The notes beneath the pieces were generated by a model. That model had not been told where the DNA came from, did no database searches, and saw only the letters and a list, made by a program, of their open reading frames with translations. From Amphiscolops sp. MND2022 (taxonomy: Eukaryota), in the NCBI GenBank assembly GCA_964187785.1, contig OZ076409.1, positions 71,612,001 to 71,676,000 on the forward strand: a stretch of DNA of 64,000 nucleotides. The letters run 5' to 3'. This document shows positions 1-22,210 of this stretch, in pieces (the first letter of the stretch is position 1; each line of letters begins with the position of its first letter). The position numbers and the translations under genes were made by a program.

Positions 1-359
1 CTTTGAAACAACACAATTCAGGTCAAGGCAATGAACTAACGAACTGCTATAAATACAGACCCTGGGGTATTGCTTTGTATGTGTTCGGGTTTAGTTCCAC
101 AAGTGAAAGTCAAAACTTTTTAAAAAGGAAGACACTGCAGATGCGAGTTACATCGGAGTTGGAAAGAAAAAAGACCCAACGCATTGTACTGAATTTGGAC
201 TGTTTACGAGCAGCTGTTTCCGGTAAATGTCTATCACAGAAACTGATTTTCAATTAGGAGCTGAACTTATGCCTGATATATTAACTGATTTTTCATGTTT
301 TTTCAGACTCCATTGCCCGAGTTGATAGCAGTCTAACTATGGTTTTGTGTATGAAATAG
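1..359 (+). CDS. Partial spliced gene; C-terminal part of an SLX1-type GIY-YIG nuclease-like domain (exon <1-222, intron 223-306, exon 307-359)
   Basis: The frame starting at 3 reads LKQHNSGQGNELTNCYKYRPWGIALYVFGF, matching the SLX1-type GIY-YIG pattern R-L-x-QHN-x-G...T...RPW...V-x-GF. Donor G|GTAAAT at 223 and acceptor TTTCAG at 306 join in frame to ...AVSDSIARVDSSLTMVLCMK* (TAG 357-359). The GIY/YIG motifs lie upstream of the window, and the expected catalytic Glu is not obvious. Confidence 0.6.
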
Positions 360-1337
360 ATGCCATACAAGCTGAAGTAAGTTTGTCCACCCACTTAATC
401 GTCGCAACACTGAGTTGTAGTTCATGTTTTTATTGTTTGCAGGAACGTGCCATTCATCCACTTCAATTATGATTCCACGCGATTCCCACGACTCTTCAGA
501 AATAAAACTGTAAAGAAAACTTATTGAACACGGTTGCCGTGTTCGTACGGGCTATCTTAACAATGTTGGTGGTACGTTTGACGTAATCAACCATTTTGTC
601 CGTTTTCTCTTTTTGATTGACAGTTCAAATATTCTATGTCCCGCTTTTCTTCGTTTCCCGTTTGTCCATTTCTCAGCTTTTTATGATTTTCCAAAAAAAA
701 ACAATTCTTGTAAAATAGACTGAACTTGCGCGGTCCTCTTGAGTAAGGTCCGAATTGCTTCGAAAATGATGTTTAGCTTATTTTGTTGTCATTACGTTTG
801 ACGTAATGAATATACCTTGTTGCAGATAGAATGCGCGAGTGGCGTGGGCAGGCTTCCAAATGCCATGCGTTTGGAAGTCTGCCCATGCATCTTGTTTTCC
901 CCTTCCTTAATCTTTTTGCGTCGAAAGATAATCTTCCTCCATCCTAAATCCGCAGTTTTTCAGATTTTTGAATCAAGATCACTTCTGTGAGCAGTCAGAA
1001 TGGAAAAAGCTCAAAACTTCGAGGTTAGAAGTATTTCCTACTTTTTGTTTTTGGATATGTTCATCACCAGTTACGACTGTTTGTCACCAGTTACCGCATT
1101 CAGGTTATGGAGTGACTGGTTTAATTTTGCACACGATTTTTGATGAACCATAGCCATTTCACTTTCGCTCGCTTGCCTGAGTTCCGTATTGAAACTTGAA
1201 ATTTACACACTTTTTCTCTCGCATCTGTTGATAAAGTGACTCTGGTTTTTCGGGAAAATTTTGATTGTTCTTTTTGAAGGATTTATTTTGATCTGAGATA
1301 GAATAATAAAAATTATCAAATTGCTGATTTGACATAG

Positions 1338-2735
1338 AATGCTCATGATGAAGTTACCCCTCCGAAACAGCCGCGGTCGACCAACAGTGATGTAGAAGAC
1401 CGAGATGTGAGTGTTTTACTACAGCTGTTTTATTTTAAATAAAAATTTGAGTGGAAATTTTACTCTAGATGATTTAGAACTTCGACTCGGAATTCAAGCG
1501 TGCATTAACTCATGCAGTGCGCGATAATGTCCGTGAATGCTTTTTGGAGATGCATGGTGGTTCAAAAAAAGATAATTTGCCAGTGGACGTTAACGTGGGA
1601 TCTTCTGAAAACAGCCATCCAGCAATTGTAAGAAAAATTAGATCACATAAGATGCTAACATATTTAACGATTTTCTATGTGGCCAAAATGTTATAGGACT
1701 TCCAAGATAGTCAAGGCTCTGCCACTTCCAGGGAGATACAGGTCGACCTGCACCAAGTAATCTCCCATGATTACCTGAGAAAATTCGCCAAGAAGAAGCC
1801 TTTCTTGAGAGGGCGAATTGTTGTGATAAAGCTCTTTGATAAAGCTCCTGTCATCTTTCAAAGACACGGGGCTCAGCGATACAAGTTCGAAGGACAATAC
1901 GACCGGCTTGTTGTAGTGGGCGACAGAAACTCTCACATGTGTTGTGTGATTATCTGTAAGTACGCTAGGGAGTCTAATAAGCTGTTCCAAGACTACACTT
2001 TGGCGTTAGGTAGTATGGTGGATATTGTGGAACCACAGTTTTTGAAGGCTTCGTTGGGCCAGGATGAAAACAATCCTATAATTACCACAACTAAACCTCT
2101 GCGCGCTGTCTCAATCGTCCCCTTACATCTACCTACATTAGAAGTTAGAGATGATCTTAACACGAGTGCGATGCTACATTTTGCAATTAAAGGTAAATCC
2201 AAATTTCGGAAGAATATTTATATGATGTTTTTGTGAATATTGATAAATTTCATATTGTTAAGGCAAAAGGCTAATCTTCGCGATGCCCCAAATTGTCGCT
2301 CCTACATGTAGTGGCATTCTTTGCGACAGATCAATTCGCTCCAGTTTGTGTGCATGCATGAACAAAGATGCCACTGAAAGTTGGGTCTTGAGCTTCATCC
2401 TTGTGCCGGAGGATGAAGATGACCCACATGCTGCTCTCTACCCCATTGACCGCCTTCAAAGTTTTAGAACAAGCACGTTTTTCCTCAGTCGAGAAGTGCT
2501 TGATAAACCCGCCAGCGTCCTGGATGAGGATGACATTCGTGCTTGCGTTGACAAGATACAGGATTACGTTAACGAAAATGGAGGGTGGTATATCGCGGGT
2601 TACCACAAATCTGGAACAAACAACTCCACATCTGCGGACAACAAAATTGTGAAAGAACTGAAAGACTTCAATATTACTTATCTAACACCACTGAAGTATC
2701 TTGATTTGAGCGCAATGCAATATAAACTTGATTGA
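1338..2735 (+). CDS. Multi-exon gene for an uncharacterised Cys-motif protein (exons 1338-1406, 1478-1627, 1697-2192, 2263-2735; start exon not located)
   Basis: Three ~70-nt GT-AG introns (1407-1477, 1628-1696, 2193-2262) splice in frame without stops: NAHDEVTPPKQ..DRD|NFDSEFKR..HPAI|DFQDSQG..HFAIKG|KRLIFAMPQ..YKLD*. This joins ORFs 1805-2236 and 2283-2735. Motifs include CSGILCDRS..CAC and YVNENGGWYIAGYH. Confidence 0.8.
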
Positions 2736-3683
2736 AGAACTTAAACAAGAGCCTTGCAAAACTATGCCTAAAACTTCTTTCTACGTTCGACGTGGAGAGA
2801 CTTGTTATGTTTAAATGACCTAAATATTACTGCACTTTTTGACAGATTACGTTCGACGTAATCTGTTTTAAGATATCACCTATTTTATTTAAACTTATCA
2901 CGTTGTCAATTCAATTCAACTGTCTGAGTCATTTTTGACAATCAGCAACGACCTCATACAGAAAGTTGGAATTTCAATAATGTTCGTTTAGTTGGAAAAA
3001 TCTCAAGTCCCATAGTTTTATCATACACCAGCAGAGCTAACAAAATTGCAGAGAGAATAAAAATGTTTTGGAAAAGTCTGCTAGATTACTTTTGTCCCAC
3101 AGTTGGGTCGCTGAACTCGCATCGAATATTATACGATACTATCAAAAGACACGCCAGCTTTGATTTTGACTTCAAAATAGAATTTTCATCTAAAACAAAC
3201 CGTTATGTATGACTCAGCGTGCAGCGCATGATTAGCGATAGCCTTTTAATTTAACATCTCTGTCAAAAGTACACGCTGTTGTCTTACATAGTACGTTTCT
3301 ATAGGATCTATTGATGTACTATTGTTTAAATGTTCCTTTATACAACATCGTTTTTGACAGCCAAAATGTTTCATGTGTTCAGAACTAAAAATCGTGTGAA
3401 ATTTCCTAAAAGGAATCTGTTCTCTCCACCTGTTTTTACATGAGGGGTTTTACCATATCCCAAAAAGATATTAGCAAGTTCTTTTGAACCAATGCCAAAG
3501 AAAGTTCCTGATGCAGTTGGCAAAAACAGCGATATCCTCACATAATTTTTAATGTCACAAGCTTTGTATTGTAACTAGTCCAATGCCACATACGGCGTCA
3601 ACGCCCACTGTCCGTAGGCATGCCGAGGCATGCCTTTCGACGACGCGCGCCGGAAACAATCAAACGGCGCCACCCGCTTCTGG

Positions 3684-6600
3684 GTGGGCGGGGGTAATTC
3701 CCCAACTAAAAAATCGGCCGGCGGGTAGGGTCCTGCCGGCCGTCCAAAATCAAAAATATACTAGTAGAAAACGGCCGGTCAAACGAGCTATTTTTTTATT
3801 TAACCGTTAGAATTTGGGTTTAGATTGCATGCGGCCATGAAATGGCCATACGAATCGAAGTTCCTGCTGACGTTTTGCGATTGAAACACTTTATAAAAAG
3901 TTATGGCCAATTTGTCAGTCACCTAGAAGGGCAAAATGAGGAAAATTTTAACAAAGTCGCTAATAACTCAAAATGTGTTATTTTTTGGACTTTGACTGTG
4001 AAACAAGCTTGGAACCTTCATTTCGTGGCTGTGGCATTGCACTGAACGCAAAAGATGTAAAGTTTTTACATTTTTTGAAAATTTGACATTTTTGAAATTT
4101 TTTTCACTACTATCAGTACCATATATGTCAAAAACACCTCAGAAAAAAAATTTTATTTGCTTTAACTTGGAAACCTTGGTATCCATGGTTTCTGTCGGAA
4201 CCTACTCGCAACCAAACAACCAACAGTTTGCATCCAATGTGAAAATAAAAAATTTTTCTGGGTCATAAGCGTTTCACAAGGATTTCTCAACTTAGTATTA
4301 ATTTACGAAATGGTCATCTTGAACACAATATTTTCATCGAGGCTTGTCGGCTATAGCCTTAATGTTCTAGAACGGTCCCACTGGCAACGTAGGAACCATT
4401 TATAGTAATAGAAAGTTTAAAAAATATATTTTCACCCTGTCTTCAGTCATTTTTCAGTCATTCGGAACTTAACTTAGAAAAATTTCGACCAAAATACCCA
4501 TTTTTTGACAGATCGAAAATTCAAATTCAACTTTTTAAGCAAAATTAGTAACTCTGACGTAACCAGTGGGACTCATGATACTCAAAAACACGATTGGGAC
4601 TGGTACCAATGGCTCCAATATCATATGAGCCGCGATAAGACGTTATTTTGAGCAATACGTCTCAATTGAGGGAAACATCTCGCAAGCCTGGGATCACAGT
4701 TAAAAGTGATTTCGTCAAAAATTTACTCTTTTTCGTCAATCACTATGTACACAGAGTGCGTAGGGTGAGTTTCAGCACTATAATGCGGTTTTTGAAGGAA
4801 TCGGTCTGCTCAAGGGGTGGTATGAGACATTTTTTTTGCATGTAGTACTATATTTCTCAAAACTTTTAGCCCAATATCTCGAAAAGCTCACTTCGCAAAT
4901 TACTTTCAGTTACTCTATTCGAAGCTTAGAATATATATGAACAGTGTGGTTGATCAGAAACTCTTGACTATTTTGTTTTTGGAAAAAAAACTGCCTTGCA
5001 TGTGTTACATTAGTGGCAGGAAAAATACCAGTAGCTCCAAAAATCACAATTTTGGACGGACAGACCTGCAATGATGCAAAGCAAAAACGTTTCAACAACT
5101 TCTGGCGCCACTTTTTTAACCCAAGAGGTTCGAAATTACTATTAACAATGCTGACATTCGCTATAAATAAGATCGAGGTCAATTTACTAACACTTAGGTT
5201 ATACATTTATATCTGAGAAACCATTCTTTGTCAGGTCGCAATTTTAAATTTAGTTTGGGAAGCAATACTTTTCACTCTGAAGCAAACCGTTGGGCCCAAA
5301 TTACTCAAAAACTACAAAAAGACTGTCACCATATGCCCTAATAGCATATGAGATTCGACCGTATGTTTTTAACACAAAAACTCTCATCCGAAGTAAACAT
5401 GTTGAAAGCCTTGAATCACCGTGAGAAATGATTTCATCAAAAAATATTCCTTTTCCGTCAATCTTTATCTACACAGAACACGTTGTGTCATTTTCAGCCG
5501 TGAAATGAGCTTCTACCGTAATATGGGTTGCTCAAGGTGTTGTATAAGACAAAAACTTCCTCTTTTCTACTATCTTCTTCAAATATTTCAACCCTTTGTC
5601 ACAAGAAGTTAATATTCAAAATCTCTTTGAAATGTTTCTTTAGGTTGGGGTGAAGTGTTAGAACAATAATTATGATCGAAGAATGATAGTATTGGTGTTT
5701 GGACCATGTCCGGATGAACAAATTGCAAAATCATGAAAAATTTCTTACCATTTTTGGTCATATTGTCAGTACTAAAAATGTTAGCTGAAAAAGAATTTTT
5801 TTGATGGCACCATTGGATTCCTCTCAAAAAGTTGGTTATATGACCTGTGTAATAACCCCGTATCTTTTCAATTTAAATATATTTAAAAAGCCAACTATTT
5901 TGACCAAAATACTAAAAATCATACCATTTCCTAAAAATTTTCAAATGCACCCCATTTGACGTATAAGAATAGCACAGAAAACTATCACATACCGATCGAC
6001 TCTACTTCCATTGTAGATTCCCAGAATTTTGTTTAGAACAATTTTTGACGGATGCAAAAAAATTTAAACCCTCCAAAAAAGGGCCAAAATTACACGAAAA
6101 AATTGACCTTAAAATTTTAAAATGTCGAAAAATCATCAAAACCACAGCTTCTTGGGGTTCTATCAACTCCACGTGGTCCACAGAGTATGTTAAAACAAGT
6201 TTTACCCGTATTTGAGCAATATGTGAAAAAGCCGACTTTTTTGGGAATGAAAAACATACCATTTCCTAAAAAATTTCAAACGCACCCCATTTGACGTATA
6301 AGAATAGCACAGAAAACTATCACATACCGATCGACTCTACTTCCATTGTAGGTTACCAGAATCTTGTTTAGAACAATTGTTGACGGATGCAAAAAAAAAT
6401 TTAAACCCTCCAAAAATGGGCCAAAATTACACGAAAAAATTGACCTTAAATTTTTAAAATGTCAAAAAATCATCAAAACCACAGCTTCTTGGGGTTCTAT
6501 CAACTCCACGTGGTCCACAGAGTATGCTAAAACAGGTTTTACATGTTTCTGAGCTATATGTGAAAAAACCGACATTTTGGGGAAGAAAAACATACCATTT

Positions 6601-8447
6601 CTTAAAAAATTTCAAATGCACGCCATTTGCCGTATGAGAATAGCACAGAAAACTATCACATACCGATCAACTCTACTTCTATTGTAGATTATCAGATTTT
6701 TGTTTAGAACAAATTTTTATGGATATAAAAAATTTTTAAACCCTCCAAAAATGAGCCAAAATAACACGAAAAAATGGACCCTAAATTTTTAAAATGTCAA
6801 AAAATTATCCAAACCACAGCTTCTTGGGGTTCTATCAGCTCCACGTGGTCCACAGAGTATGCTAAAACAGGTTTTGCCCGTTTTTGAGCAGTATATGAAA
6901 AAGCCGACATTTTTGGGGAAGAAAAACATACCATTTCCTAAATAATTTCAAATGCAGGCAATTTGCCGTATGAGAGTAGCACAGAAAACTATCACACACC
7001 GATCAACTCTACTTCTTTTGTAGATTATCAGAATTATGTTTAGAGTAAAGTTTTATGGATATGAAAAATTTTTATACCCTCCAAAAATGGGCCAAAATGA
7101 CACGAAAAAATTGACCTCAAATTTTTAAAATGTCAAAAAATTATCCAAACCACAGCGTCTTGGCGTTCTATCAACTCCAAATGACCTTCAGAGTATACCA
7201 AACCAGGTATTGCCAATCTTTTGAGCAATATTTAAAAACACCGACTATTTGGCAAGAACACCATAATATGTTCCATATAAGAAGTGAATCATTCCACATA
7301 TATACCCGGTCTAATATTTCCAAATTAGCGATAACATTTATACATGATGGTTTTTGAAAGTGAGCTTTATAAGAGGTTGAGATGTAATAATACGTAAATG
7401 GACCCTAAGTTTCATTGAAATCTCAATGGAATACGTCCAATCAACTTCAATCCTAACTATTATATAACAAAAAACACTTGAGTACATTCCATCTCCCCAT
7501 CGGGGGAGATGAGAATGTACTTTTCAAAAGCCAAAAACTTCGAATTTTAAATCTTTTGTAACATTGTATGTAACTGTTGAAACGATGAACGAATGAAAAT
7601 GCTTCTAGTACCTTCATCAATTTTTGCTTCAGCTCCTATTTCTGCAGAACAAAACCAAAAGACACACTTACAGCAGTTAAGTTCGATTGTATAACTCAGT
7701 GAGTAAAGGTATGACTGAGGAAGTTCACAAGTTGTTTCAAAAGTTTCCGGCCTTCCAAAATCATGAAACGTCCACACAACCAAGATAGCAAGTGAAAGAA
7801 TGCTGAATGCACCTTATTAGATGAGATAAATAATGTGTGGAACTTGCCATTATCTCAAGATGACGTTGATTTATGATCTTTTAAGGATAGTTCGATATGT
7901 GACCACAATAGTGGAAAACTTATTACTATTTGAAGAACACCGTGGAAAGCGTTCAGAAAGGACAGTATATTTGTTTCGAGCATGCATGCGTGTGTTCCTT
8001 TGGTGACGTTAGCTTAGTGTACATGACGGAGGTATTCGAGAGATTATGATAGAGTTTACTCACAAGTCTTTGTTTTTTTAAACTTTCTATGCCGTTGAGT
8101 ACATTCGTAAGGTACATCCATCCCCTTCTCTGGGAATGTACGTTTGCCAAATGACTGTCATCCAAAATTCGTAATCCGGACGAGTTTAACTACATAAACA
8201 TGTGATGAGCGTTTTCAATTCACAACCGAATAACATTTTTTTTCTCGAAAATGATGATGGTTTTGATTTTGATGTCTTCTACTTTTATCATCATGCAAAC
8301 GACCTTACCATGTCTCTCTTCTGTCGTCATTTGTACAACGCCACATAGCGTTCCGACGCCCACCGTCTGTGGGCATGCCGAGGCATGCCCTTCGACGACG
8401 TATGCCAAATGAGCCATACCCGCACTCTGGAGTGCGGTAGCGGCTAG
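3684..8447 (+). mobile_element. Non-autonomous Helitron-like unit, family A1 (4764 bp)
   Basis: Starts GTGGGCGGGGG with the 5' hairpins; internal ~336-bp tandem repeat; ends with the GGCATGCC hairpin, CCGCACTC-TG-GAGTGCGG hairpin and CTAG (8444-8447). Confidence 0.8.
5915..7270. repeat. ~336-bp tandem repeat (~4 copies; dimer of ~168-bp subunits) inside A1
   Basis: AGCACAGAAAACT recurs at 5971, 6306, 6642 and 6978; ATC(A/G)ACTC recurs at 5995, 6162 and 6330. Boundaries approximate. Confidence 0.9.
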
Positions 8448-10430
8448 GTGGGCGGGGGTAATTCCCCTTCAAAAAATTCGGCCGGCGGGTTGGGTCCTGC
8501 CGGACGTCAAATAGTGTGAAACATCCAGTAGGAAACGGCGACATAAATCAGCGATTTTAAAATTTAACCGTTAGAATTCGGACTTGGAGTGCATGCGGCC
8601 CCAAAATGCCCATACGAATCGAAGTTCCTGCTGACGTTAAGCGATAAAAACACTTTATAAAAAGTTATGGCCCATTTTACGTTCACTTAGAGAGGTAAAA
8701 TGAGGAAAATTTTAACAAAGTTGCTGATAACTCAAAATACATTAATTTTTGGACTTTGACTGTGAAACAAGCTTGGAACCTTCATTTCGTGGCTGTGGCA
8801 TTGCACTGAACACAAAAGATGTAAAGTTTTCACATTTTTTGAAAATTCAACATTTTTGATTTTTTTTTCACTACTATCAGTACACTATATGTCAAAAACA
8901 CCTCTGAAAAAATTTTTATTTGCTCAAATTTAGAAACCTCGGTATCCATGGTTTCCGTCAGTACCTACTCGCTGCAAAACGCTCAACAGTTTGCATCCAA
9001 TGTGAAAATAAAATTTTTTTGGAGGTCTTAGGTGTTTCACAAGGATTTCTCAACTTAGTATCAATTTACAAATTGGTCATTTTGAACACATTATTTCCAT
9101 CGAAGCTTGTCGGCTATAGCCTTAATGTTCTAGAACGGTCTCACTGGCAACGTAGGAACCGTTTATAGTAATAGAAAGTTTTTAAAAAAATTTTTCACCC
9201 GGTCTTCAGTCATTTTTCAGTCATTCGGAACTTAACTTAGAAAAATTTCGACCAAAATACCCATTTTTTGTCAGGTCGAAAAATCAAATTCAGCTTTTTA
9301 AGCAAATTTATTAACTCTGACGTAACCCATGGGGCCCATGATACTCAAAACAACGATTGACACTGGTATCAGTGGCTCCAATAACATTTGAGTCGCGATA
9401 AGACGTTACTTTGAGCAATACGTCTCAATTGAGGTAAAGATCTCGCAAGCCAGCGATCACTGTGAAATGTGATTTCATCAAAAATTTACTCATTTTTGTC
9501 AATCACTATGTGCACAGAATGCGTGGGGTGCGTTTCAGCACTATAATGAGGTTTTTGAAGGTATCGAGTTGCTCAAGGGGTGGTATGAGACATTTTTGTC
9601 CCATATACTACTGTATTTTCCAAAATTTTTAGCCCAATATCTGGAAATACAAACTTGACAAAATACTTTCAACTACTTTATTCAAAGGTTACATTATAGA
9701 TGAACACTGTGGTTGATCAGAAACTTTCATCTCTTTCGTTTTCCGAAATATTTCTTTTCGCATGTGTTACATTCGTAGCAGAAAAAAAATCGAAACTGAA
9801 AAATACGCAATTTTGCTAATATAGAATCGCAATGATTGTGCCTAAAAACTCTTTAAACACTTCTAACGCGACCTTACGCACCCAAAATGATCAAAAATGC
9901 TATTCACAATGGTGACATGTGCTCTTTCAACGATCCTGACTGAACAATTTTCGCAAATTATTCAAGTACCTGTTAACTGAATCTCGTGATAGCCTTTTAA
10001 GTTGGCCTTGTGTCAACTTGGGAAGGCTATCACATCAAAAAAGTTTCAACAAAAATACTTTTTGTTTATTGGAAATGACAGTCGATATATAATTTCGTGA
10101 TTCTATACTACCGTTAGTACCTTCCATTAAGTCACCTGACGATTGCATTCAGTCTTTGATAAATACCTATGAACTCGAAGTCATATTTATAAATTTTGTG
10201 CTAAAAATAAACATAAAAATTATCCAAATTATTTAAAATTGAGTCTTTACCGTTTTTGTTTTTCTTTTTCTACTGTTATTAGGCCCATCAACTTCCTACA
10301 GCCACGCTCTCTGTCATACCGTACAACGCCACATAGTGTTGCGACGTGCACAGTCTGTGGGCATGCCGAGGCATGCCCTTCGACGACGTATGCCGAATAC
10401 CGCGGGCCTACGCCCGCGCTCCCCGGCTAG
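8448..10430 (+). mobile_element. Non-autonomous unit, family B (1983 bp)
   Basis: GTG start; 5' ~1.2 kb homologous to family A; ends with the GGCATGCC hairpin, CGCGGGC-CTAC-GCCCGCG hairpin and CTAG. Confidence 0.8.
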
Positions 10431-12415
10431 GTGGGCGGGGGTAATTCCCCAACAAAAAAATCGGCCGGCGGGTTGGGTCCTGCCGGACGTCAAATAGTGT
10501 GAAACATCCAGTAGGAAACGGCGACATAAATCAGCGATTTTAAAATTTAACCGTTAGAATTCGGACTTGGAGTGCATGCGGCCCCAAAATGCCCATACGA
10601 ATCGAAGTTCCTGCTGACGTTAAGCGATAAAAACATTTTATAAAAAGTTATGGCTCATTTTACGTTCACCTATAAGGGTAAAATGATGAAAATTTTTACA
10701 AAGTCGCTGATAACTCAAAATACATTAATTTTTGGACTTTGACTGTGAAACAAGCTTAGAACCTTCATTTCGTGGCTGTGGCATTGCACTGAACACAAAA
10801 GATGTAAAGTTTTTACATTTTTTGGAAATTCGACATTTTTGATTTTTTCTCACTACTATCAGTACACTATATGTCAAAAACACCTCTGAAAAAAAATATT
10901 ATTTGCTTAAAATTGGAAACCTTGGTATCCATGGTTTCTGTCGGAACCTACTCGCTGCCAAACACCCAACAGTTTGCATCCAATGTGAAATTAAAATTTT
11001 TTTCGAGGTCTTAGGTGTTTCACAAGGATTTCTCAACTTAGTTTCAATTTACAAATTGGTCATATTGAACACAATATTTTCATCGGAGCTTGTCAGATAC
11101 CGCCCTAATGCTCACTAATGGGCCTACTCGCAACGTTGGAACCGTTTATAGTAATAGAAAGTTAAAAAAAATATTTTCACCCGGTCTTCAGTCATTTTTC
11201 AGTCATTCGGAACTTAACTTAGAAAAATTTCGACCAAAATACCAATTTTTTGTCAGGTCGAAAAATCAAATTCAGATTTTTAAGCAAAATTATTTACTCT
11301 GACGTAACTAGTGGGCCCCATGATACTCAAAAACACGATTGGGAACGGTACCAAGGGCTCCAATTTCATATGAGCCGCGATAAGACGTTATTTTGAGCAA
11401 CACGTCTCAATAGAGGTAAACATCTCGCAAGCCTGGGGTCACAGTGAAAAGTAATTTCATCAAGAATTTACTCATTTTTGTCAATCACTATGTGCACAGA
11501 GTGCGTAGGGTGCGTTTCAGCACTTTAATGAGGTTTTTGAAGGCATCGGTCTGCTCAAGGGGTGGTATGAGACATTTTTTTCCTGTATACTACTGTATTT
11601 TCCAAAACTTTTAGCCAATTATCTGGAAAAACTAACTTGACAAAATACTTTCAATTACTTTATTCAAAGGTTACAATATAGATGAACTCTGTGGTTGATC
11701 AGAAACTCTCAACTATTTTGTTTTCCGGAAAAAATCACTTCGCATCTGTTACATTTGTAGCATGAAAAAAAGCAGAATCTAAAAAATACGCAATTTTGTT
11801 AAGATAGAATCGCGTTGATTGTGCCTAAAAAGTTAATAAACACGTCTGACGCCACCATACAGACCCCAAATGATTGAACATGTCAATCAGAATGCTGACA
11901 TGTGTTCTATCTACGATCATGGTTGGACAATTTTTGCATTATTTTCAAGTACCTGTTAACTGAATCTTGTGATAGCCTTTTAAGTTGGCCTTGTGTCAAC
12001 TTTGGAAGGCTATCACATCAAAAAATTATCAACAAAAATGCTTTTTGTTTATACAATGTTGTTTTCGATAAACATTTTTGCGATTCTAAGCTACCGTTAG
12101 TACCTTCCATGAGGTCAGCTAACGATAGCATGCAGTCTCTGATAAAAAATTATGAACTCAATTACATTTTTCTAAAATTTTTCTTAGAGAAAAGTACAAA
12201 TAAATAAAAACAATATAAAATTCTAATCTCAAACAACTATAAATTGTTTGTTTTTCACCGTAATCAGTTTACCACCCATCACCCTATGTCACGGCACCGT
12301 CATTAGTACAACGCCACATAGTGTAGCGACGTGCACAGTCTGTGGGCATGCCGAGGCATGCCCTTCGACGACGTATGCCGAATACCGCGGGCCTACGCCC
12401 GCGCTCCCCGGCTAG
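10431..12415 (+). mobile_element. Non-autonomous unit, family B (1985 bp)
   Basis: Same termini as other B units; near-identical to 33721-35708. Confidence 0.8.
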
Positions 12416-15400
12416 GTGGGTGGGGGTAATTCCCCAACTAAAAAATCGGCCGGCGGGTAGGGTCCTGCCGGCCGTCCAAAATCAAAAATATACTAGTAGA
12501 AAACGGCCGGTCAAACGAGCTATTTTTTTATTTAACCGTTAGAATTTGGGTTTAGATTGCATGCGGCCATGAAATGGCCATACGAATCGAAGTTCCTGCT
12601 GACGTTTTGCGATTGAAACACTTTATAAAAAGTTATGGCCAATTTGTCAGTCACCTAGAAGGGCAAAATGAGGAAAATTTTAACAAAGTCGCTGATAACT
12701 CAAAATGTGTTATTTTTTGGACTTTGACTGTGAAACAAGCTTGGAACCTTCATTTCGTGGCTGTGGCATTGCACTGAACGCAAAAGATGTAAAGTTTTTA
12801 CATTTTTTGAAAATTTGACATTTTTGAAATTTTTTTCACTACTATCAGTACCATATATGTCAAAAACACCTCAGAAAAAAAATTTTATTTGCTTTAACTT
12901 GGAAACCTTGGTATCCATGGTTTCTGTCGGAACCTACTCGCAACCAAACAACCAACAGTTTGCATCCAATGTGAAAATAAAAAATTTTTCTGGGTCATAA
13001 GCGTTTCACAAGGATTTCTCAACTTAGTATTAATTTACAAAATGGTCATTTTGAACACAATATTTTCATCGAGGCTTGTCGGCTATAGCCTTAATGTTCT
13101 AGAACGGTCCCACTGGCAACGTAGGAACCATTTATAGTAATAGAAAGTTTAAAAAATATATTATCACCCTGTCTTCAGTCATTTTTCTGTCATTCGGAAC
13201 TTAACTTAGAAAAATTTCGACCAAAATACCCATTTTTTGACAGATCGAAAATTCAAATTCAACTTTTTAAGCAAAATTATTAACTCTGACGTAACCAGTG
13301 GGGCTCATGATACTCAAAAACACGATTGGGACTGGTACCAATGGCTCCAATATCATATGAGCCGCGATAAGACGTTATTTTGAGCAATACGTCTCAATTG
13401 AGGGAAACATCTCGCAAGCCTGGGATCACAGTTAAAAGTGATTTCGTCAAAAATTTACTCTTTTTCGTCAATCACTATGTACACAGAGTGCGTAGGGTGA
13501 GTTTCAGCACTATAATGCGGTTTTTGAAGGAATCGGTCTGCACAAGGGGTGGTATGAGACATTTTTTTGCATGTAGTACTATATTTCTCAAAACTTTTAG
13601 CCCATTATCTCGAAAAGCTCACTTCGCAAATTACTTTCAGTTACTCTATTCGAAGCTTAGAATATATATGAACACTGTGGTTGATCAGAAACTCTTGACT
13701 ATTTTGTTTTTGGAAAAAAACTGCCTTGCATGTGTTACATTAGTGGCAGGAAAAATACCAGTAGCTCCAAAAATCACAATTTTGGACGGACAGACCTGCA
13801 ATGATGCAAAGCAAAAACGTTTCAACAACTTCTGGCGCCACTTTTTTTACCCAAGAGGTTCGAAATTACTATTAACAATGCTGACATTCGCTATAAATAA
13901 GATCGAGGTCAATTTACTAACACTTAGGTTATACATTTATATCTGAGAAACCATTCTTTGTCAGGTCGCAATTTTAAATTTAGTTTGGGAAGCAATACTT
14001 TTCACTCTGAAGCAAACCGTTGGGCCCAAATTACTCAAAAACTACAAAAAGACTGTCACCATATGCCCTAATAGCATATGAGATTCGACCGTTCGTTTTT
14101 AACACAAAAACTCTCATCCGAAGTAAACATGTTGAAAGCCTTGAATCACCGTGAGAAATGATTTCATCAAAAAATATTCCTTTTTCGTCAATCTTTATCT
14201 ACACAGAACACGTTGTGTCATTTTCAGCCGTGAAATGAGCTTCTACCGTAATATGGGTTGCTCAAGGTGTTGTATAAGACAAAAACTTCCTCTTTTCTAC
14301 TATCTTCTTCAAATATTTCAACCCTTTGTCACAAGAAGTTAATATTCAAAATCTCTTTGAAATGTTTCTTTAGGTTGGGGTGAAGCGTTAGAACAATAAT
14401 TATGATCGAAGAATGATAGTATTGGTGTTTGGACCATGTCCGGATGAACAAATTGCAAAATCATGAAAAATTTCTTACCATTTTTGGTCATTTTGTCAGT
14501 ACTAAAAATGTTAGCTGAAAAAGAATTTTTTTGATGGCACCATTGGATTCCTCTCAAAAAGTTAGCTATATGAACTGTGTAATAACCCCGTATCTTTTCA
14601 ATTTAAATAATTTTAAAAAGCAAACTTTTTTGACTAAAATCCTAAAAATCATACCATTTCCTAAAAAATTTCAAATGCCCCCCATTTGACGTATAAGAAT
14701 AGCACAGAAAACTATCACATACCGATCGACTCTACTTCCATTGTAGATTACCAGAATTTTGTTTAGAACAATTTTTGACGGATGCAAAAAAAATTTAAAC
14801 CCTCCAAAAAAGGGCCAAAATTACACGAAAAAATTGACCTTAAAATTTTAAAATGTCGAAAAATCATCAAAACCACAGCTTCTTGGGGTTCTATCAACTC
14901 CACGTGGTCCACAGAGTATGTTAAAACAAGTTTTACCCGTATTTGAGCAATATGTGAAAAAGCCGACTTTTTTGGGAATGAAAAACATACCATTTCCTAA
15001 AAAATTTCAAACGCACCCCATTTGACGTATAAGAATAGCACAGAAAACTATCACATACCGATCGACTCTACTTCCATTGTAGGTTACCAGAATCTTGTTT
15101 AGAACAATTGTTGACGGATGCAAAAAAAATTAAACCCTCCAAAAATGGGCCAAAATTACACGAAAAAATTGACCTTAAATTTTTAAAATGTCAAAAAATC
15201 ATCAAAACCACAGCTTCTTGGGGTTCTATCAACTCCACGTGGTCCACAGAGTATGCTAAAACAGGTTTTACCTGTTTCTGAGCTATATGTGAAAAAACCG
15301 ACATTTTGGGGAAGAAAAACATACCATTTCCTAAAAAATTTCAAATGCACGCCATTTGCCGTATGAGAATAGCACAGAAAACTATCACATACCGATCAAC

Positions 15401-17176
15401 TCTACTTCTATTGTAGATTATCAGATTTTTGTTTAGAACAAATTTTTATGGATATAAAAAATTTTTAAACCCTCCAAAAATGAGCCAAAATAACACGAAA
15501 AAATGGACCCTAAATTTTTAAAATGTCAAAAAATTATCCAAACCACAGCTTCTTGGGGTTCTATCAGCTCCACGTGGTCCACAGAGTATGCTAAAACAGG
15601 TTTTGCCCGTTTTTGAGCAGTATATGAAAAAGCCGACATTTTTGGGGAAGAAAAACATACCATTTCCTAAATAATTTCAAATGCAGGCAATTTGCCGTAT
15701 GAGAGTAGCACAGAAAACTATCACACACCGATCAACTCTACTTCTTTTGTAGATTATCAGAATTATGTTTAGAGTAAAGTTTTATGGATATGAAAAATTT
15801 TTATACCCTCCAAAAATGGGCCAAAATGACACGAAAAAATTGACCTCAAATTTTTAAAATGTCAAAAAAATATCCAAACCACAGCGTCTTGGCGTTCTAT
15901 CAACTCCAAATGACCTTCAGAGTATACCAAACCAGGTATTGCCAATCTTTTGAGCAATATTTAAAAACACCGACTATTTGGCAAGAACACCATAATATGT
16001 TCCATATAAGAAGTGAATCATTCCACATATATACCCGGTCTAATATTTCCAAATTAGCGATAACATTTATACATGATGGTTTTTGAAAGTGAGCTTCATA
16101 AGAGGTTGAGATGTAATAATACGTAAATGGACCCTAAGTTTCATTGAAATCTCAATGGAATACGTCCAATCAACTTCAATCCTAACTATTATATATCAAA
16201 AAACACTTGAGTACATTCCATCTCCCCATCGGGGGAGATGAGAATGTACTTTTCAAAAGCCAAAAACTTCGAATTTTAAATCTTTTGTAACATTGTATGT
16301 AACTGTTGAAACGATGAACGAATGAAAATGCTTCTAGTACCTTCATCAATTTTTGCTTCAGCTCCTATTTCTGCAGAACAAAACCAAAAGACACACTTAC
16401 AGCAGTTAAGTTCGATTGTATAACTCAGTGAGTAAAGGTATGACTGAGGAAGTTCACAAGTTGTTTCAAAAGTTTCCGGCCTTCCAAAATCATGAAACGT
16501 CCACACAACCAAGATAGCAAGTGAAAGAATGCTGAATGCACCTTATTAGATGAGATAAATAATGTGTGGAACTTGCCATTATCTCAAGATGACGTTGATT
16601 TATGATCTTTTAAGGATAGTTCGATATGTGACCACAATAGTGGAAAACTTATTACTATTTGAAGAACACCGTGGAAAGCGTTCAGAAAGGACAGTATATT
16701 TGTTTCGAGCATGCATGCGTGTGTTCCTTTGGTGACGTTAGCTTAGTGTACATGACGGAGGTATTCGAGAGATTATGATAGAGTTTACTCACAAGTCTTT
16801 GTTTTTTTAAACTTTCTATGCCGTTGAGTACATTCGTAAGGTACATCCATCCCCTTCTCTGGGAATGTACGTTTGCCAAATGACTGTCATCCAAAATTCG
16901 TAATCCGGACGAGTTTAACTACATAAACATGTGATGAGCGTTTTCAATTCACAACCGAATAACATTTTTTTTCTCGAAAATGATGATGGTTTTGATTTTG
17001 ATGTCTTCTACTTTTATCATCATGCAAACGACCTTACCATGTCTCTCTTCTGTCGTCATTTGTACAACGCCACATAGCGTTCCGACGCCCACCGTCTGTG
17101 GGCATGCCGAGGCATGCCCTTCGACGACGTATGCCAAATGAGCCATACCCGCACTCTGGAGTGCGGTAGCGGCTAG
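12416..17176 (+). mobile_element. Non-autonomous unit, family A1 (4761 bp)
   Basis: Near-identical to 3684-8447; CTAG at 17173-17176. Confidence 0.8.
14645..16000. repeat. ~336-bp tandem repeat inside A1
   Basis: Copy of the 5915-7270 repeat; boundaries approximate. Confidence 0.9.
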
Positions 17177-19168
17177 GTGCGGGGGGGAAACCCCATCCCT
17201 TATCTTGGAGGATTCGGGTAGGGTCCTGAATCCGAGTTCAGTGCCGCCAGCTCTCAGTAGAAATCTGGGAAATTTTTTGCGATCTCGTGATCTAACCATA
17301 GGATTTTAAAGTTGGAGCGGCCCCCACCAGATTTTCCAAAGTTATTCGCCCCCCACCGGGTTCCAGCGTGATTGAAATATTCTGACGGGGTACACGGGCG
17401 ACCGTTAGGGGTCATTTTAGGGGTAAAATTTATATAATGTCGCATAACTTTTTTCCTGTTGGATTAAAACTTTGGGACCCTGCTAAAAGTTTCTTGACCG
17501 TGTTGCGGGGGCTCCGGAGGTCCAAACCAAATTTTTCTATCTTGAAGCTATCTCCAAGTACCCCCCCGCCCAAACCGTTATTTTTCCGGAAACGCAGGTT
17601 TTTGACCCGGAAGGAGTCGTCTGAGCGCGGGGTCGTTAGGTGATGTATTGGGGACGGCCTCGAGACGAAGCGGGGGATATATAGTTTGCCGACCCCAGTT
17701 TACCCCCCGCACGGGAAATGACCGTTATTTGAGCGGGAAAAATGCCCCCCTCCACTTTTTACCGCTATTTCCGGTGTGAAGGAGTGGGAGTAGCGCGTCG
17801 GGTGTTATATATCAAAAGTAGGTTTAGACAAGGACCTATCAGGAACATGTGGTTTGGGACCCCCTGGTCCAACCCGTTAGCGAGAAATGGGGCTTCCGCC
17901 TCCTTTTTTTACTGCTAAAACCGTAAAATGGGCATTGAGGGGTAAATATCTCGTGAACGCGTGGAGCTACGGTGTCCTTCACTACTACAAGGTTTCATAC
18001 CCATGATATGGTGCCTTCAGGGGGGCAAACAGATTTACGCTATCTATTACCGTTACGGACTTGGCCCCCCAGCCTAACCGCTATGTGACCGGAAATGTCA
18101 CTTTTTGGGCCCAAAGGGTCGATCCTAGCCGGGCAACGTTAGGTAACATATTGTAGTACTCATTGAGACGAGTTGGGGGATATAGTTTCAGTCACCCCCC
18201 GTTACCCCTTGAGACCGGAAATGACCGTTATGTGAGTAGAATTGCAATTTCTATACCTTTTGAAGGGCATTCAGATGCGGAAGGAGTGGTTATAGGTGCT
18301 TGGACACCATATGATGTAATGGAGGTCGTGAGGAGAGCATTCGGAAGTAACCGTTACGTTGACCCCAAAGTCCTCTTGGTACCGTTAACGAACGGAAATG
18401 GCCAAATTTTGTGTTTATAGGGTACAAATGTTTGGTATTTTATGGATAAAAGTACCTGGAAGGTGTTTTAAAGGCCTCCAGAAGTGAACATAGTCATGAA
18501 ACCTTGTGGGGGGTAACGGTATATAGCACCGGAAGTCCAAACCGTTGGTTACAGAATAGGTTTTTTGGTTTCAAAATGTCTTTAGGCGTAGTTTTGTGGG
18601 TTGAATTGTCATAATATCAACTAATACGGACTTTTTTCGGAAATAAAATTTTTTCACATTAGTTTCAGGGACCTCCAATGCTTCAGTCAACATAACCGTT
18701 ACATTTTGATAGCCTTTCAAGTTGGCCTGGTGTCAACTTGGAAGGGCTATCCTTCTAAAATCGTTAATCAAGAGTGTTTTCGGGTAGGTATATGTTGCAT
18801 TAGTACCAATTAGAGCTTCATCAAGAGTTTGCCAACGGCAAAAACGATGTCGTGATAATTCCGTTATAAGAATATTAGTTAACAAATTGTTTACTAAGTT
18901 GATTTTTTCAATGTAAAATGTGTCCTGATGCCACCAAATTGAATAAAATAATGAATGGTATTGACTAAAACTAAATAACAATGAAAAAGAATATCAACAT
19001 TTTAATAGGTCTCGTTATGGAAGCTGAAACCTCACGTTTTAACATAATTAACGTCAACGCCACATACTTTACATCAACGCCCACCGTCTGTGGGCATGCC
19101 GAGGCATGCCCTTCGACGACGTATACCAAACAACCTCCATATCTACACCCGATTGCGGTAGCAGCTAG
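17177..19168 (+). mobile_element. Non-autonomous unit, family C (1992 bp)
   Basis: Starts GTGCGGGGGG with hairpin GGATTCGGG-TAGGGT-CCTGAATCC. GC-richer body rich in CCGGAAAT/ACCGTTA motifs. Ends with the GGCATGCC hairpin and GCAGCTAG. Confidence 0.8.
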
Positions 19169-21141
19169 GTGCGGGGGGGTAACCCCAACAAATATATTGG
19201 AGGATTCGGGTAGGGTCCTGAATCCGATTTTAACTCTAATAGCTATCGATAGGAAATCTTGCAAAAATTTCGGGATCTCGTGATCTAACCATAGGATTTT
19301 AAAGTTGGAGCGGCCCCCACCAGATTTTCCAAAGTTATTCGCCCCCCACCGGGTTCCAGCGTGATTGAAATATTTTGACGGGGTACACGGGCGACCGTTA
19401 GGGGTCATTTTGGGGGTAAAATTTATAAAAGTTCGCATAACTTTTTTCCTGTTGGTTTAAAACTTTAGGACCCTGCTAAAAGTTTCTTGACCATGTTGCA
19501 AGGGCTCCGGAGGTCCAAACCAATTTTTTCTATCTTGAAGCTATCTCCAAGTACCCCCCCGCTCAAACCGTTATTTTTCCGGAAACGCCGGTTTTTGACC
19601 CGGAAGGAGTCGTCTGAGCGTGGGGTCGTTAGGTGATGTTTTGGGGACGGCCTCGAGACGAAGCGGGGGATATATAGTTTGCCGACCCCAATTTACCCTC
19701 CGGACGGGAAATGACCGTTATATGAGCGGTAAAAATGCCCCCCTCCACGTTTTACCGCTATTTCCGGTGTGAAGGAGTGGGAGTAGCGCGTCGGGTGCTA
19801 TATAACAAAAGTAGGTTTAGACAAGGACCTATCGGAAACATGTAGTTTGGGACCCCCTGGTCCAACCCGTTAGCGGAAAATGGGGCTTCCGCCTCCTTTT
19901 TTTACTGCTAAACCCGTAAAATGGGCATTGAGGGGTAAATATCTCGTGAACGCGTGGAGCAATCGTGTCCATCACTACTACTAGGTTTCATACCCATGAT
20001 ATGGTGCCTTCAGGGGGGCAAACAGATTTCCGCTATCTATCACCGTTACCGACTTGGCCCCCCAGCCTAACCGCTATGTGACCGGAAATGTCACTTTTTA
20101 AGCCCAAAGGGTCGGTCCCAGCCGGGGAACGTTAGGTAACTTATTGTAGTACTCAATGAGACGAGTTGGGGGATATAGTTTCAGTCACCCCCCGTTACCC
20201 CGTGGGACCGGAAATGACCGTTATGTGGGTAAAATTGCAATTTTTATACTTTTTCAAGTGTATTTAGGTGCGGAAGGAGTGGTAATAGGTGCTTGGACAC
20301 TATATGAGGTAAGGGAGGACGTGAGGCGAGCATTCGGAAATAACCGTTATGTTAACCCTAAAGTCCCCCTGGTACCGTAAACGACCGGAAATGGTCAAAT
20401 TTTGTGTCTATTGGGTTCAAATGTTTAGTATTTTGTAGATAAAAGTATCTATTAGGTGTTTCGACGGTCTGCAATAGTGAACATAGTCATGAAACCTTGT
20501 GGGGGGTAACGGGGTATATAGCACCGGAAGTCCAAACCGTTGGACACAGGATAGGTTTTTGGTTTGAAAATGTCTTTCGGCGTACTTTTGTCGACTATTA
20601 TGGACTATTATTAAAAATTAAAGTTTTTCCATATAGTTTCAGAGACTCCGAAACCTCAACCAACATAACCGTTACATTTTGATAGCCTTTCAAGTTGGCC
20701 TGGTGTCAACTTGGAAGCGCTATCCTTCTGAAATCGTTAATCAAGAGTGTTTTTGGGTAGGTATATATTGCATTAGTACCAATTAGAGCTTCATCAACAG
20801 TGTATCAACGACAAAAACTATGCCGTCATGATTCCGTTATTAGAATCATAGTGAGCAAAGTGTTGAAAAAAATGGTTTTTTCCATACAAAATGTGTCCTA
20901 AATACCAGGAAACCTATTTACCTAACAAATGGTATTAATTGGAATGTTTGTAACAGATTTATAAAAGTTCAAATTGAATATTACATTTCATTATGGAAGC
21001 TGAAACGTCATATTTTAGTTTAATTAACGTCAACGCCACACACTTTACATCAACGCACACCGTCTGTGGGCATGCCGAGGCATGCCCTTCGACGACGTAT
21101 GACAAATCCATATCAAACGACGCCCGTACATCCCGGGCTAG
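19169..21141 (+). mobile_element. Non-autonomous unit, family C (1973 bp)
   Basis: C-type body; variant 3' tail CGCCCGTACATCCCGGGCTAG. Confidence 0.8.
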
Positions 21142-22210
21142 GTGGTCAAGGGGGATGCCCATCAGAAAATATTGCGAGGCCGGGGAGGGTCCCGAGAGCC
21201 GAGCACATTCTATCAATTCCTACCTTCAGGATTGCGAAGTATTTTAACCGATCTCGAAATTCACCCGTAGGATTTGTCTGAAACTTTGCATGTGGCTTTA
21301 TCTCAAAAATTTAGGAATTTTTTTCTGCTGACGTTTTTCCAGGAAAATTCATTTTGTAGGGTTTTTTTGCGTTTTTTTGGTTTTTTTCATCTTTGTTCAT
21401 CTTTGATTAATCAATGACCGAATCAAAGGCCATTTTCACCATGAAGGAAAACCCGTAGCGGCAAAGTGCACTTTTATGAAAATCATCAATGGTTAACGGT
21501 CTTTCGAACGGTCCGAAAAAATTTCCCCCCGGGGGAAACCAAAGTGCCGAAAAGTGCCAAAATTATTTTTTTGACTGAATCACTTTGATCAAATTGATGA
21601 TTTGAGCAGCCGGAACGGTCCGCACGGTCTCGGACAATAAGGTCAAAAATTGTCAGCATCCAATGGGGGTTCCAAAAATGTAATTCGTTCACCTGTAGGA
21701 GACATCAGAAAAAAGTTGATTTTTTGGGGTATATGTCATTATGAGTGATTGGATGAGAAATAATTGTATCACTTTCAGTTGGATATGATGCAGCACAGGA
21801 AGCAGCTGCAGCAAACTTGAAACTAATTATGGGGCTGGGGTTTACCCTCTGTATCAAGCAAAGAAGCCCTAGGGCATAAGTTGTGCCAAAAAATGCCTCA
21901 AAGTGATGATTGGTTATTGCAAATCGATCAGCAAAATCTATTGTCACCGGTGTTCCGAGAGTTGCGCAGCACCTCGCAGGAACAACGGTGCTTGCTTAGA
22001 AAGCAAAAAACCACAAAATCCCTTGAGTTAAGTTGACGGCAGTCACCATAGACATTCACTCGTCAGGGTGATGATATTTATCGTTCAGTCCCAGAATAAC
22101 TTACAAAAAATTGCTAGCCTCAATATTTCTTTTTCATACTCCATTAGCAAAGGTTGCGCTGTTAAGTTTAGGCCTTTTACTAGCAGTGCTCTAAATCGCT
22201 CCATCGCTAG
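21142..22210 (+). mobile_element. Single-copy unit D (1069 bp); has 5' motifs but lacks the conserved 3' block
   Basis: Starts GTGGTCAAGGGG; GGGTCC at +45; GATCTCG..CCGTAGGATTT..GAAACTTTGCATG motif; ends GCTAG at 22210 with no GGCATGCC hairpin. Confidence 0.6.

What the first reader, a model, noticed from the sequence alone, without database searches (positions are those of the whole stretch)
1..3683. Gene-bearing array member with a GIY-YIG-like nuclease domain: likely autonomous driver
Seen: this coding segment terminates in the same conserved 3' block and CTRG|GTG junction as the non-coding units, so it is itself an array unit. Its first exon has QHN-x-G...RPW...VFGF. Established: this is the pattern of SLX1-type GIY-YIG structure-specific nucleases, and Helentron-type RepHel proteins carry C-terminal nuclease fusions (typically AP-endonuclease). 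Inference: this is the C-terminus of a Rep-helicase-GIY-YIG protein or an adjacent nuclease gene that may help recognise or cut the hairpin-flanked junction. The catalytic Glu expected after the GF motif is not obvious (..RKTLQMRV..), so the domain may be divergent or inactive.
Basis: partly seen in the sequence, partly recalled or inferred. Interest (0 to 1): 0.8.

Follow-up and report, generated by a model that had tools for sequence, protein, structure and literature searches.

The report
Gene-carrying unit with nuclease-dead SLX1 domain
The first 3.7 kb of this window is the tail of a gene-carrying member of a head-to-tail array of mobile-looking DNA units, likely Helitron-type rolling-circle transposons, but its SLX1-like nuclease domain lacks both conserved catalytic residues and no transposase gene is in view, so it is not shown to drive the array.

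Summary
Observation confirmed; interpretation only partly supported. Bases 1-3683 end in the array's 3' hairpin block and a CTGG|GTG junction, one of 23 CTRG|GTG junctions. The QHN-x13-RPW-x7-GF motif is SLX1-type: it retrieves 17 of 17 GIY-YIG ORFs from giant-virus contigs, and a profile of 39 SLX1-type proteins ranks this exon first of 2309 window segments (E=0.002). But the conserved Glu position is Leu, and the codon at the conserved Arg ends in CT, so it cannot be Arg; relatives keep both. The domain is predicted inactive, so it should not cut the junction. No Rep or helicase is seen in the window, and no genome or reads were available for upstream DNA, so 'autonomous driver' is untested. 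Best reading: the 3' end of a large Helitron-like element. The 3' ends are Helitron1-like (hairpin, CTRR; one unit stops at a cryptic CTAG), but the 5' end is non-canonical (GTG plus two hairpins). A related junction occurs in a metagenome contig. Helitron arrays and GIY-YIG capture are in print; the termini and exact mixed joining are the unusual part.

The parts
1..222 (+). Gene 1, exon open at the window edge: C-terminal half of an SLX1-type GIY-YIG domain (QHN-x13-RPW-x7-GF at 9-92). The conserved-Arg codon ends in CT (bases 1-2); the conserved-Glu position is Leu (120-122).
223..306 (+). Predicted GT-AG intron of gene 1 (84 bp, 30% GC)
307..472 (+). End of gene 1. The frame stops at TAG 357-359. 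A further strong 66-bp intron (377-442) follows, flanked by a different open frame, so it is either a 3' UTR intron or a sign of a frame break between about 307 and 332 (unresolved).
573..804 (.). Two copies (573, 793) of the near-palindrome TACGTTYGACGT; two more at 2782 and 2848; none elsewhere in the window
842..888 (+). 22-bp hairpin between the genes; its three mismatches are G-T wobbles on the + strand
1000..2735 (+). Gene 2, an intact spliced ORF of about 400 aa: exons 1338-1406, 1478-1627, 1697-2192, 2263-2735, with introns of 71, 69 and 70 bp at 21-28% GC; first exon 1000-1023 tentative. No relative found. OB-fold plus Cys-cluster (RPA-like) by eye only.
   Evidence: negative or inconclusive searches
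3576..3645 (+). Conserved 3' block shared with the other units, with an 8-bp hairpin (3616-3635) that shows compensatory changes
3647..3683 (+). Unit-specific weak terminal hairpin (3647-3670, 6-bp stem; 70 of 200 shuffles fold as well) and the terminal CTGG
3684..3742 (+). 5' end of the next unit: GTG, a small hairpin (3691-3703) and an 11-bp hairpin around GGGTCC (3715-3742)
3684..64000 (+). Mixed head-to-tail array: 22 complete units (6 of 4760-4764 bp; 14 of 1973-2015 bp in two families that share about 6% of their length; one of 1069 bp; one of 2186 bp) and one cut unit, all in one orientation, none with a comparable spliced ORF
21142..22210 (+). Unit with a 5' terminus but no 3' block, ending at a CTAG and joined exactly to the next GTG (reads as premature termination)

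Best explanation
Bases 1-3683 are the 3' end of a large gene-carrying unit of the array, likely a Helitron-like rolling-circle transposon, whose SLX1-type GIY-YIG domain lacks both conserved catalytic residues and is therefore predicted not to cut DNA. Shown: shared 3' hairpin block, CTRG end, exact join to the next unit's GTG, the SLX1-type motif, the two changed positions, and an intact second spliced gene. Inferred mechanism: an HUH Rep-helicase nicks at G|GTG next to the 5' hairpins, peels off one strand, stops at CTRG after a hairpin, and makes a circle whose junction is CTRG|GTG; circles of any family then join the array at an existing junction, which gives exact mixed arrays, with recombination between units adding mosaics. 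Inferred position: gene 1 is most likely the tail of that Rep-helicase, or a small accessory gene, and gene 2 is likely an accessory single-strand DNA-binding protein. Whether this copy supplies the transposase is untested. My odds for the steps: array member 0.9; SLX1-derived 0.9; nuclease-dead 0.85; HUH rolling-circle class 0.7; gene 1 is a Rep-helicase tail 0.5; this copy is a working driver 0.2.
For: 23 junctions, all CTRG|GTG, with no target duplication or spacer. 22 of 23 have the 3' hairpin 60-70 nt upstream. In 13 aligned copies all 104 cells of its 8 pairs are paired, 5 by changes on both sides; 0 of 500 shuffles reach this (related sequences inflate the control). The 5' hairpin keeps its stem with different arm sequences in different families and in L019. 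One unit lacks the 3' block and ends at a CTAG, much as Helraiser truncates at CTAG-like tetramers without its hairpin and forms exact head-to-tail circle junctions (PMC4778049 passages). SLX1 link: 17 of 17 motif matches are GIY-YIG ORFs; 14 of 14 distinct ones pass the Pfam cut-off; best of 2309 segments, E=0.0021; 0 of 5000 shuffles. Arg kept in 39 of 39 and Glu in 37 of 37 aligned relatives, neither here; R41A/E82A impairs human SLX1 (PMC5344696 passages). Gene 1 stops about 90 codons into the window, with no SLX1 C-terminal domain, as a terminal domain would. A GIY-YIG domain in a Helitron-like family and RPA genes downstream of RepHel in HLE1 are in print (PMC11417382). Gene 2: 397 spliced stop-free codons against at most 227 in 32 other tiles and 199 in 40 shuffles.
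Against: No Rep or helicase is seen in the window and upstream DNA could not be had. The 5' end is GTG, not the TC of Helitron1, and the context is neither A|T nor T|T. L019 ends CGAG, not CTRR. The terminal hairpin of this unit is no better than shuffles and is weak in the B family. No RepHel-GIY-YIG fusion was retrieved (motif scans found 0). The profile score is modest (14.8 bits). If this subfamily has its Glu in another register, the dead-nuclease call rests on the Arg alone; the nearest Glu residues lie 5 and 22 after GF. The OB-fold reading of gene 2 got no support from any search or fold comparison.
Confidence: 0.55

Rival explanations
1. One reading: an intact autonomous element whose active GIY-YIG domain recognises or cuts the hairpin junction and drives the array.
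For: It is the only coding unit of 24; gene 2 is intact; the domain is SLX1-type; SLX1 cuts branched DNA (PMC5344696 passages).
Against: Arg and Glu positions are both changed. Gene 1 may carry a frame break after 307. The unit shares only about 70 bp with the others, so they are not deletion derivatives of the visible part. No transposase is in view.
Confidence: 0.1
2. A non-autonomous unit that has captured genes, or host DNA at the edge of the array that ends in an orphan 3' terminus; the GIY-YIG piece is a decayed captured SLX1-like fragment and the transposase is encoded elsewhere.
For: Bases 1-3570 are unique in the window. The domain is degenerate. Helitrons capture and transduce genes (PMC6431247 and PMC4778049 passages). 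A 3' block can occur inside a unit (58310-58365).
Against: The exon is far from true SLX1, which is well conserved even between fungi, algae and giant viruses, and has no SLX1 C-terminal domain. Gene 2 has no cellular relative in the searches run, as an ordinary host gene would. Both genes point towards the 3' terminus.
Confidence: 0.22
3. The units are moved by another enzyme class: a site-specific recombinase acting on hairpin ends (a cassette-like array), or a Penelope/Terminon-type retroelement that carries a GIY-YIG gene.
For: The crossover point G|GTG is invariant in 23 of 23 junctions and in L019, with hairpins at both ends. Terminons carry GIY-YIG-like genes and form head-to-tail arrays (PMC6431247 passages).
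Against: No Rfam family at the gathering threshold in the window, or at E<=1 in 1-10500, so no recognised hammerhead ribozyme. 5' ends are exact rather than truncated. The unit that ends at a cryptic CTAG without its 3' block fits a terminator better than a recombination site.
Confidence: 0.1
4. A passive satellite built by unequal crossing-over from old elements, or an assembly artefact.
For: Some units are 98-100% identical and others are mosaics, so recombination does act here.
Against: Families that share only terminal blocks are joined at the same base, in irregular order. The hairpins show compensatory changes. A diverged junction of the same kind exists in an independent contig (L019).
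Confidence: 0.03

Closest known systems
Canonical Helitrons (Helitron1/HLE1; Helraiser) and their tandem arrays in Myotis, Bombyx and Daphnia
   Same: 3' hairpin followed by CTRR; exact head-to-tail junctions; truncation at CTAG-like tetramers; tandem arrays and unrelated elements side by side; RPA genes downstream of the transposase (PMC4778049, PMC2884549, PMC4067079, PMC11417382; passages).
   Different: The 5' end is GTG with two hairpins, not TC; there is no A|T target; the best-conserved hairpin lies 60-70 nt from the end; unrelated families are joined exactly over at least 60 kb; RepHel is not seen.
Helitron2 / Helentron (HLE2), including HelenSM92 of Sphagnum with a GIY-YIG domain
   Same: Hairpins at both ends (PMC3627910 passages); a GIY-YIG domain carried with RepHel in one family (PMC11417382); a nuclease domain added to the transposase.
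   Different: No asymmetric inverted repeat of 8-15 bp that pairs a unit's own ends (best 7 bp in the tested families, not co-varying); no T ends or TT target; no AP-endonuclease seen; the domain here lacks its catalytic residues. Whether the Sphagnum domain is SLX1-type I could not see (figure not held).
SLX1 structure-specific endonuclease and its giant-virus homologues (PDB 7wme, 7cq2, 4xlg)
   Same: QHN-x13-RPW-x7-GF spacing and Phe nine residues after GF.
   Different: No Arg before QHN, no Glu after that Phe, no Gly-Gly-Ala, no following Trp-x-His-Pro, and no C-terminal SLX1 domain (PF21202 in most cellular hits).
RepHel proteins with a C-terminal SLX1-type GIY-YIG domain, noted in earlier reports of this scan (unchecked AI notes)
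   Same: An SLX1-type domain at the end of a reading frame in a Helitron-like element.
   Different: At least one of those notes describes an intact nuclease domain in frame with the helicase; here the helicase is not in view and the domain is degenerate. I could not retrieve such a protein to compare.
Replitrons
   Same: Orientation-specific insertion after RG in Chlamydomonas; HUH-type hairpin ends (PMC10288648 passages).
   Different: Replitrons have short terminal direct repeats and were described from plants, algae and protists; no Rep is seen here.

Membership tests
SLX1-type GIY-YIG nuclease | QHN...RPW...GF core motif with conserved spacing | tested here: met
SLX1-type GIY-YIG nuclease | Catalytic Arg three residues before QHN (human R41) | tested here: not met
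   The codon ends in CT, giving Thr, Pro, Ala or Ser; Arg in 39 of 39 long proteins and 17 of 17 viral ORFs. R41 placed from the primer in PMC5344696. The first base of the codon is outside the window.
SLX1-type GIY-YIG nuclease | Catalytic Glu after the Phe that follows GF (human E82; equating E82 with this Glu is recalled) | tested here: not met
   Leu at 120-122; Glu in 37 of 37 aligned proteins (2 of 39 lack the exact motif) and invariant in 14 of 14 viral ORFs
SLX1-type GIY-YIG nuclease | N-terminal GIY and YIG strands | not testable with these tools
   They lie before base 1; no genome, no runs listed
Cellular SLX1 orthologue | C-terminal SLX1 (RING-type) domain after the nuclease core | tested here: not met
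   The frame stops at 357-359, or by 472 in the alternative frame; no open spliced path to gene 2
Helitron1 / HLE1 | RepHel transposase (HUH Rep plus PIF1 helicase) | not testable with these tools
   None seen: the longest stop-free frames in the window are under 200 codons and no other tile has a spliced ORF over 227 codons; upstream DNA unavailable
Helitron1 / HLE1 | 3' end CTRR | tested here: met
   23 of 23 window junctions; L019 has CGAG
Helitron1 / HLE1 | Hairpin of 16-20 nt about 10 nt before the 3' end | tested here: inconclusive
   Clear in the A families, weak in this unit and in family B
Helitron1 / HLE1 | 5' end TC and insertion between A and T | tested here: not met
   All 23 unit starts read GTG directly after CTRG; no empty site was available to fix the exact cut base
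Helitron2 / Helentron (HLE2) | Asymmetric terminal inverted repeats of 8-15 bp | tested here: not met
   Best match 7 bp between a unit's first 16 nt and its own last 130 nt; several families 4-6 bp; no co-variation (8 representative units tested against their own ends)
Helitron2 / Helentron (HLE2) | Hairpins at both ends | tested here: met
Helitron2 / Helentron (HLE2) | T ends and TT target; AP-endonuclease domain in Helentrons | tested here: not met
   Junctions CTRG|GTG; no AP-endonuclease family hit in the exons scanned
RPA70-like single-strand DNA-binding accessory gene (gene 2) | OB folds with a Cys4 zinc ribbon | tested here: inconclusive
   A four-Cys cluster and strand pattern seen by eye; no Pfam, NCBIfam or PDB hit; models at pLDDT 37 and 41 and fold searches uninformative
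Penelope-like elements / Terminons | Reverse transcriptase and hammerhead ribozyme | tested here: inconclusive
   No Rfam hit; a reverse transcriptase could lie upstream

The most novel reading that the evidence does not exclude
A eukaryotic rolling-circle system that targets only its own origin: every unit, whatever its family or cargo, enters at the G|GTG junction and builds an integron-like mixed cassette array, with unit lengths held near 2.0 and 4.76 kb. The master element has turned an SLX1 nuclease into a catalytically dead module that binds branched or hairpin DNA, kept by selection beside an unrecognised single-strand-binding gene.
Probability: 0.15. Interest if true: 0.75.

Novelty: new variant of a known kind. 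Interest (0 to 1): 0.42.

Why it matters
If upstream DNA holds a Rep-helicase, this gives a Helitron-like family with unusual ends (GTG and two hairpins at 5', CTRG at 3') whose members join only end to end. That offers many natural junctions for working out how such elements choose their target. It would also add a nuclease-dead case to the little-described link between Helitron-like elements and SLX1-type domains, which suggests the nuclease is dispensable or has a binding role. As it stands the headline claim of an autonomous driver is unproven, and Helitron arrays as such are known.

Tried and rejected
No genome is held. No sequencing run was listed for 1-3683, which is no evidence either way, so no reads were laid. 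Exon 3-221 alone: no GIY-YIG hit in Pfam, NCBIfam, PHROGs, PDB sequences, the word-indexed database (11) or phage genomes (120). The search of 1.84 billion representatives gave 3 hits at E 6-8e-4, all repeat-rich proteins matched in several short stretches and rejected as chance. The Atlas gave a GIY-YIG cluster at rank 7, score 0.83, a lead only. The hhalign match (probability 89.7) is circular, because those sequences were picked with the window's motif. A search for long proteins with the domain gave 39 hits among 7996 scored candidates, none with a helicase or Helitron domain. Four motif scans for a closer subfamily found 0. Gene 2 was searched only as single exons: no relatives; L020 and L021 are short chance matches; single-sequence models had low confidence and fold searches gave best Z 4.7 and 4.9 and no Foldseek E<=0.001. 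The 3' block was not found in viral or prokaryote genome contigs; in metagenomes 2 loci matched, of which L018 (63% GC, 24-nt match only) was rejected as chance. An apparent frameshift in gene 2 vanished with the acceptor at 1477. A single gene joining exon 1 to gene 2 was rejected: 0 open spliced paths under my splice scores. A YIG-like tripeptide in frame +2 lies after QHN, the wrong order, and was rejected. A family search for PF08646 in 4 viral records gave no RPA sequences to compare. Literature: 'Helitron' with 'SLX1' gave 5 papers, 3 listed, none on this subject by their listings; 'SLX1-like' gave 0; 'Helitron' with 'GIY-YIG' gave 32, 20 listed, of which I read passages of 3. Subscription journals and Repbase were not searchable.
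Full report
Setting. No genome is held for this window and no sequencing run was listed, so nothing before base 1 could be read. The DNA looks eukaryotic: GT-AG introns of 66-84 bp and about 39% GC in 1-3683. The host is not known.

The array. A loose junction search gave 24 places. I dropped one (CTGA at 50885, inside a unit) and kept 23, which read CTAG|GTG (21) or CTGG|GTG (2) with no spacer. They bound 22 complete units: 6 of 4760-4764 bp, 14 of 1973-2015 bp, one of 1069 bp and one of 2186 bp. The 2-kb units fall into two families that share about 6% of their length. A hairpin lies 60-70 nt before 22 of the 23 junctions. In 13 aligned copies all 104 cells of its 8 pairs are paired, 5 by changes on both sides, and 0 of 500 shuffles reach this; relatedness inflates that control. 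After the junction, 22 of 23 units have a hairpin around GGGTCC whose arms differ between families but still pair in most. One unit (21142-22210) lacks the 3' block, ends at a CTAG and is still joined exactly to the next GTG. A metagenome contig, L019, holds a diverged junction of the same build, CGAG|GTG. The second hit of that scan, L018, is a 24-nt chance match.

Is 1-3683 a member? Its end is. It carries the 3' block (about 3576-3645, 78-90% identical to the others), with an A-T pair replacing G-C at the base of the hairpin, as in L019 and one family-B unit. It ends CTGG|GTG. The rest (1-3570) has no match elsewhere in the window, so the other units are not deletion products of the visible part. 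Its 5' end is out of view, so a host flank with an orphan terminus is not excluded.

The GIY-YIG domain. The exon alone is not recognised by Pfam, PDB or database searches. I therefore back-translated its motif, QHN-x13-RPW-x7-GF, and scanned viral contigs: 17 loci matched, and all 17 lie in ORFs with the full GIY-YIG pattern. All 14 distinct ORFs pass the Pfam PF01541 cut-off, and their profile finds solved SLX1 structures first. A profile of 39 long SLX1-type proteins (found with an alignment in which the window exon was 1 of 15 rows) ranks the exon first of 2309 window segments, E=0.0021 against 0.35 for the next, and 0 of 5000 shuffles reach its score. The domain is SLX1-derived but divergent.

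It lacks both conserved catalytic residues. Three residues before QHN, 39 of 39 long proteins and 17 of 17 viral ORFs have Arg; here that codon ends in CT (bases 1-2) and can only be Thr, Pro, Ala or Ser. Ten residues after GF, 37 of 37 aligned proteins have Glu; here it is Leu. Human SLX1 is impaired by R41A and E82A, and the published primer places R41 three residues before QHN (PMC5344696, passages); that E82 is this Glu is recalled. The frame stops at 357-359 after an 84-bp intron, with no SLX1 C-terminal domain. A further strong intron at 377-442 in another open frame may mean a frame break or a 3' UTR intron. A role in cutting the junction is therefore unlikely.

A second gene. Exons 1338-1406, 1478-1627, 1697-2192 and 2263-2735 splice without a stop over three AT-rich introns of 69-71 bp; with a tentative first exon at 1000-1023 the product is about 400 aa. 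A chain search gives 397 codons here, against at most 227 in 32 other tiles and 199 in 40 shuffles. No relative or fold was found; only single exons could be searched. By eye it has OB-fold-like strand patterns and a four-Cys cluster like RPA70; this is a recalled resemblance, not a result. An intact gene argues that the unit is young or under selection.

Mechanism. Shown: exact junctions, paired and co-varying hairpins, a CTRG end, one unit ended at a cryptic CTAG, and two genes pointing towards the 3' end. Inferred: HUH rolling-circle transposition. Helraiser ends in a hairpin and CTAG, forms exact head-to-tail circle junctions, and ends at CTAG-like tetramers when the hairpin is missing (PMC4778049, passages). 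Circles that rejoin at an existing junction would explain why unrelated families meet at one base. Mosaic identity along the short A units shows that recombination also acts. Not shown: any transposase, any circle, any empty site.

Comparison. Tandem Helitron arrays are reported in Daphnia, Myotis, Bombyx and fungi, and unrelated Helitrons directly next to one another in bat and maize (passages of PMC2884549, PMC2997563, PMC4067079, PMC5148889). A GIY-YIG domain in an HLE2 family of Sphagnum, and RPA downstream of RepHel in HLE1, are reported in PMC11417382 (passages, abstract, section 22 and a supplement search; the figure itself is not held). The units fail the 5'-TC and A|T test of Helitron1, and the inverted-repeat and TT tests of Helitron2 and Helentron (PMC3627910 passages). 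They work like Helitrons on my reading but are not filed in either group. Replitrons (PMC10288648 passages) and Terminons (PMC6431247 passages) fit less well. Four unchecked notes of this scan describe RepHel proteins ending in an SLX1-type domain; they raised my odds that gene 1 is such a tail, but I could not retrieve one to compare. I found no paper linking Helitrons and SLX1 in the library searched, which lacks most subscription journals.

Verdict. The unit is a real gene-bearing array member with an SLX1-derived domain that is predicted inactive; 'autonomous driver' is untested. New variant of a known kind; interest 0.42.

Noticed in passing
window 842-888: A 22-bp hairpin between the two genes; as RNA on the + strand z = -8.1, 0 of 200 shuffles fold as well, and all three mismatches are G-U wobbles on that strand only. 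It could be a small-RNA precursor or a processing signal.
   Followed up: partly
window 573, 793, 2782, 2848: The near-palindrome TACGTTYGACGT occurs four times, two after each gene, and nowhere else in 64 kb (0.01 expected).
   Followed up: partly
window 3684-63365: Unit lengths cluster at 1973-2015 bp in two families that share little sequence, and at 4760-4764 bp in subfamilies only 83% identical. Unexplained.
   Followed up: no
window 56417-58602: This unit lacks the GGGTCC 5' hairpin but has another hairpin at that place, and holds an internal degenerate copy of the 3' block at about 58310-58365 with compensatory changes.
   Followed up: partly
window 5915-7250 and five other long units: Each 4.76-kb unit holds about four copies of a 336-bp tandem repeat.
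   Followed up: no
window 8448-56416, short A units: Pairwise identity switches along the units, so they are mosaics of one another.
   Followed up: partly
window 2928-3209: A 94-codon open frame after gene 2, possibly a third decayed gene; no Pfam hit.
   Followed up: partly
L019:790-945: A junction of the same family in an independent metagenome contig, ending CGAG rather than CTRG.
   Followed up: yes
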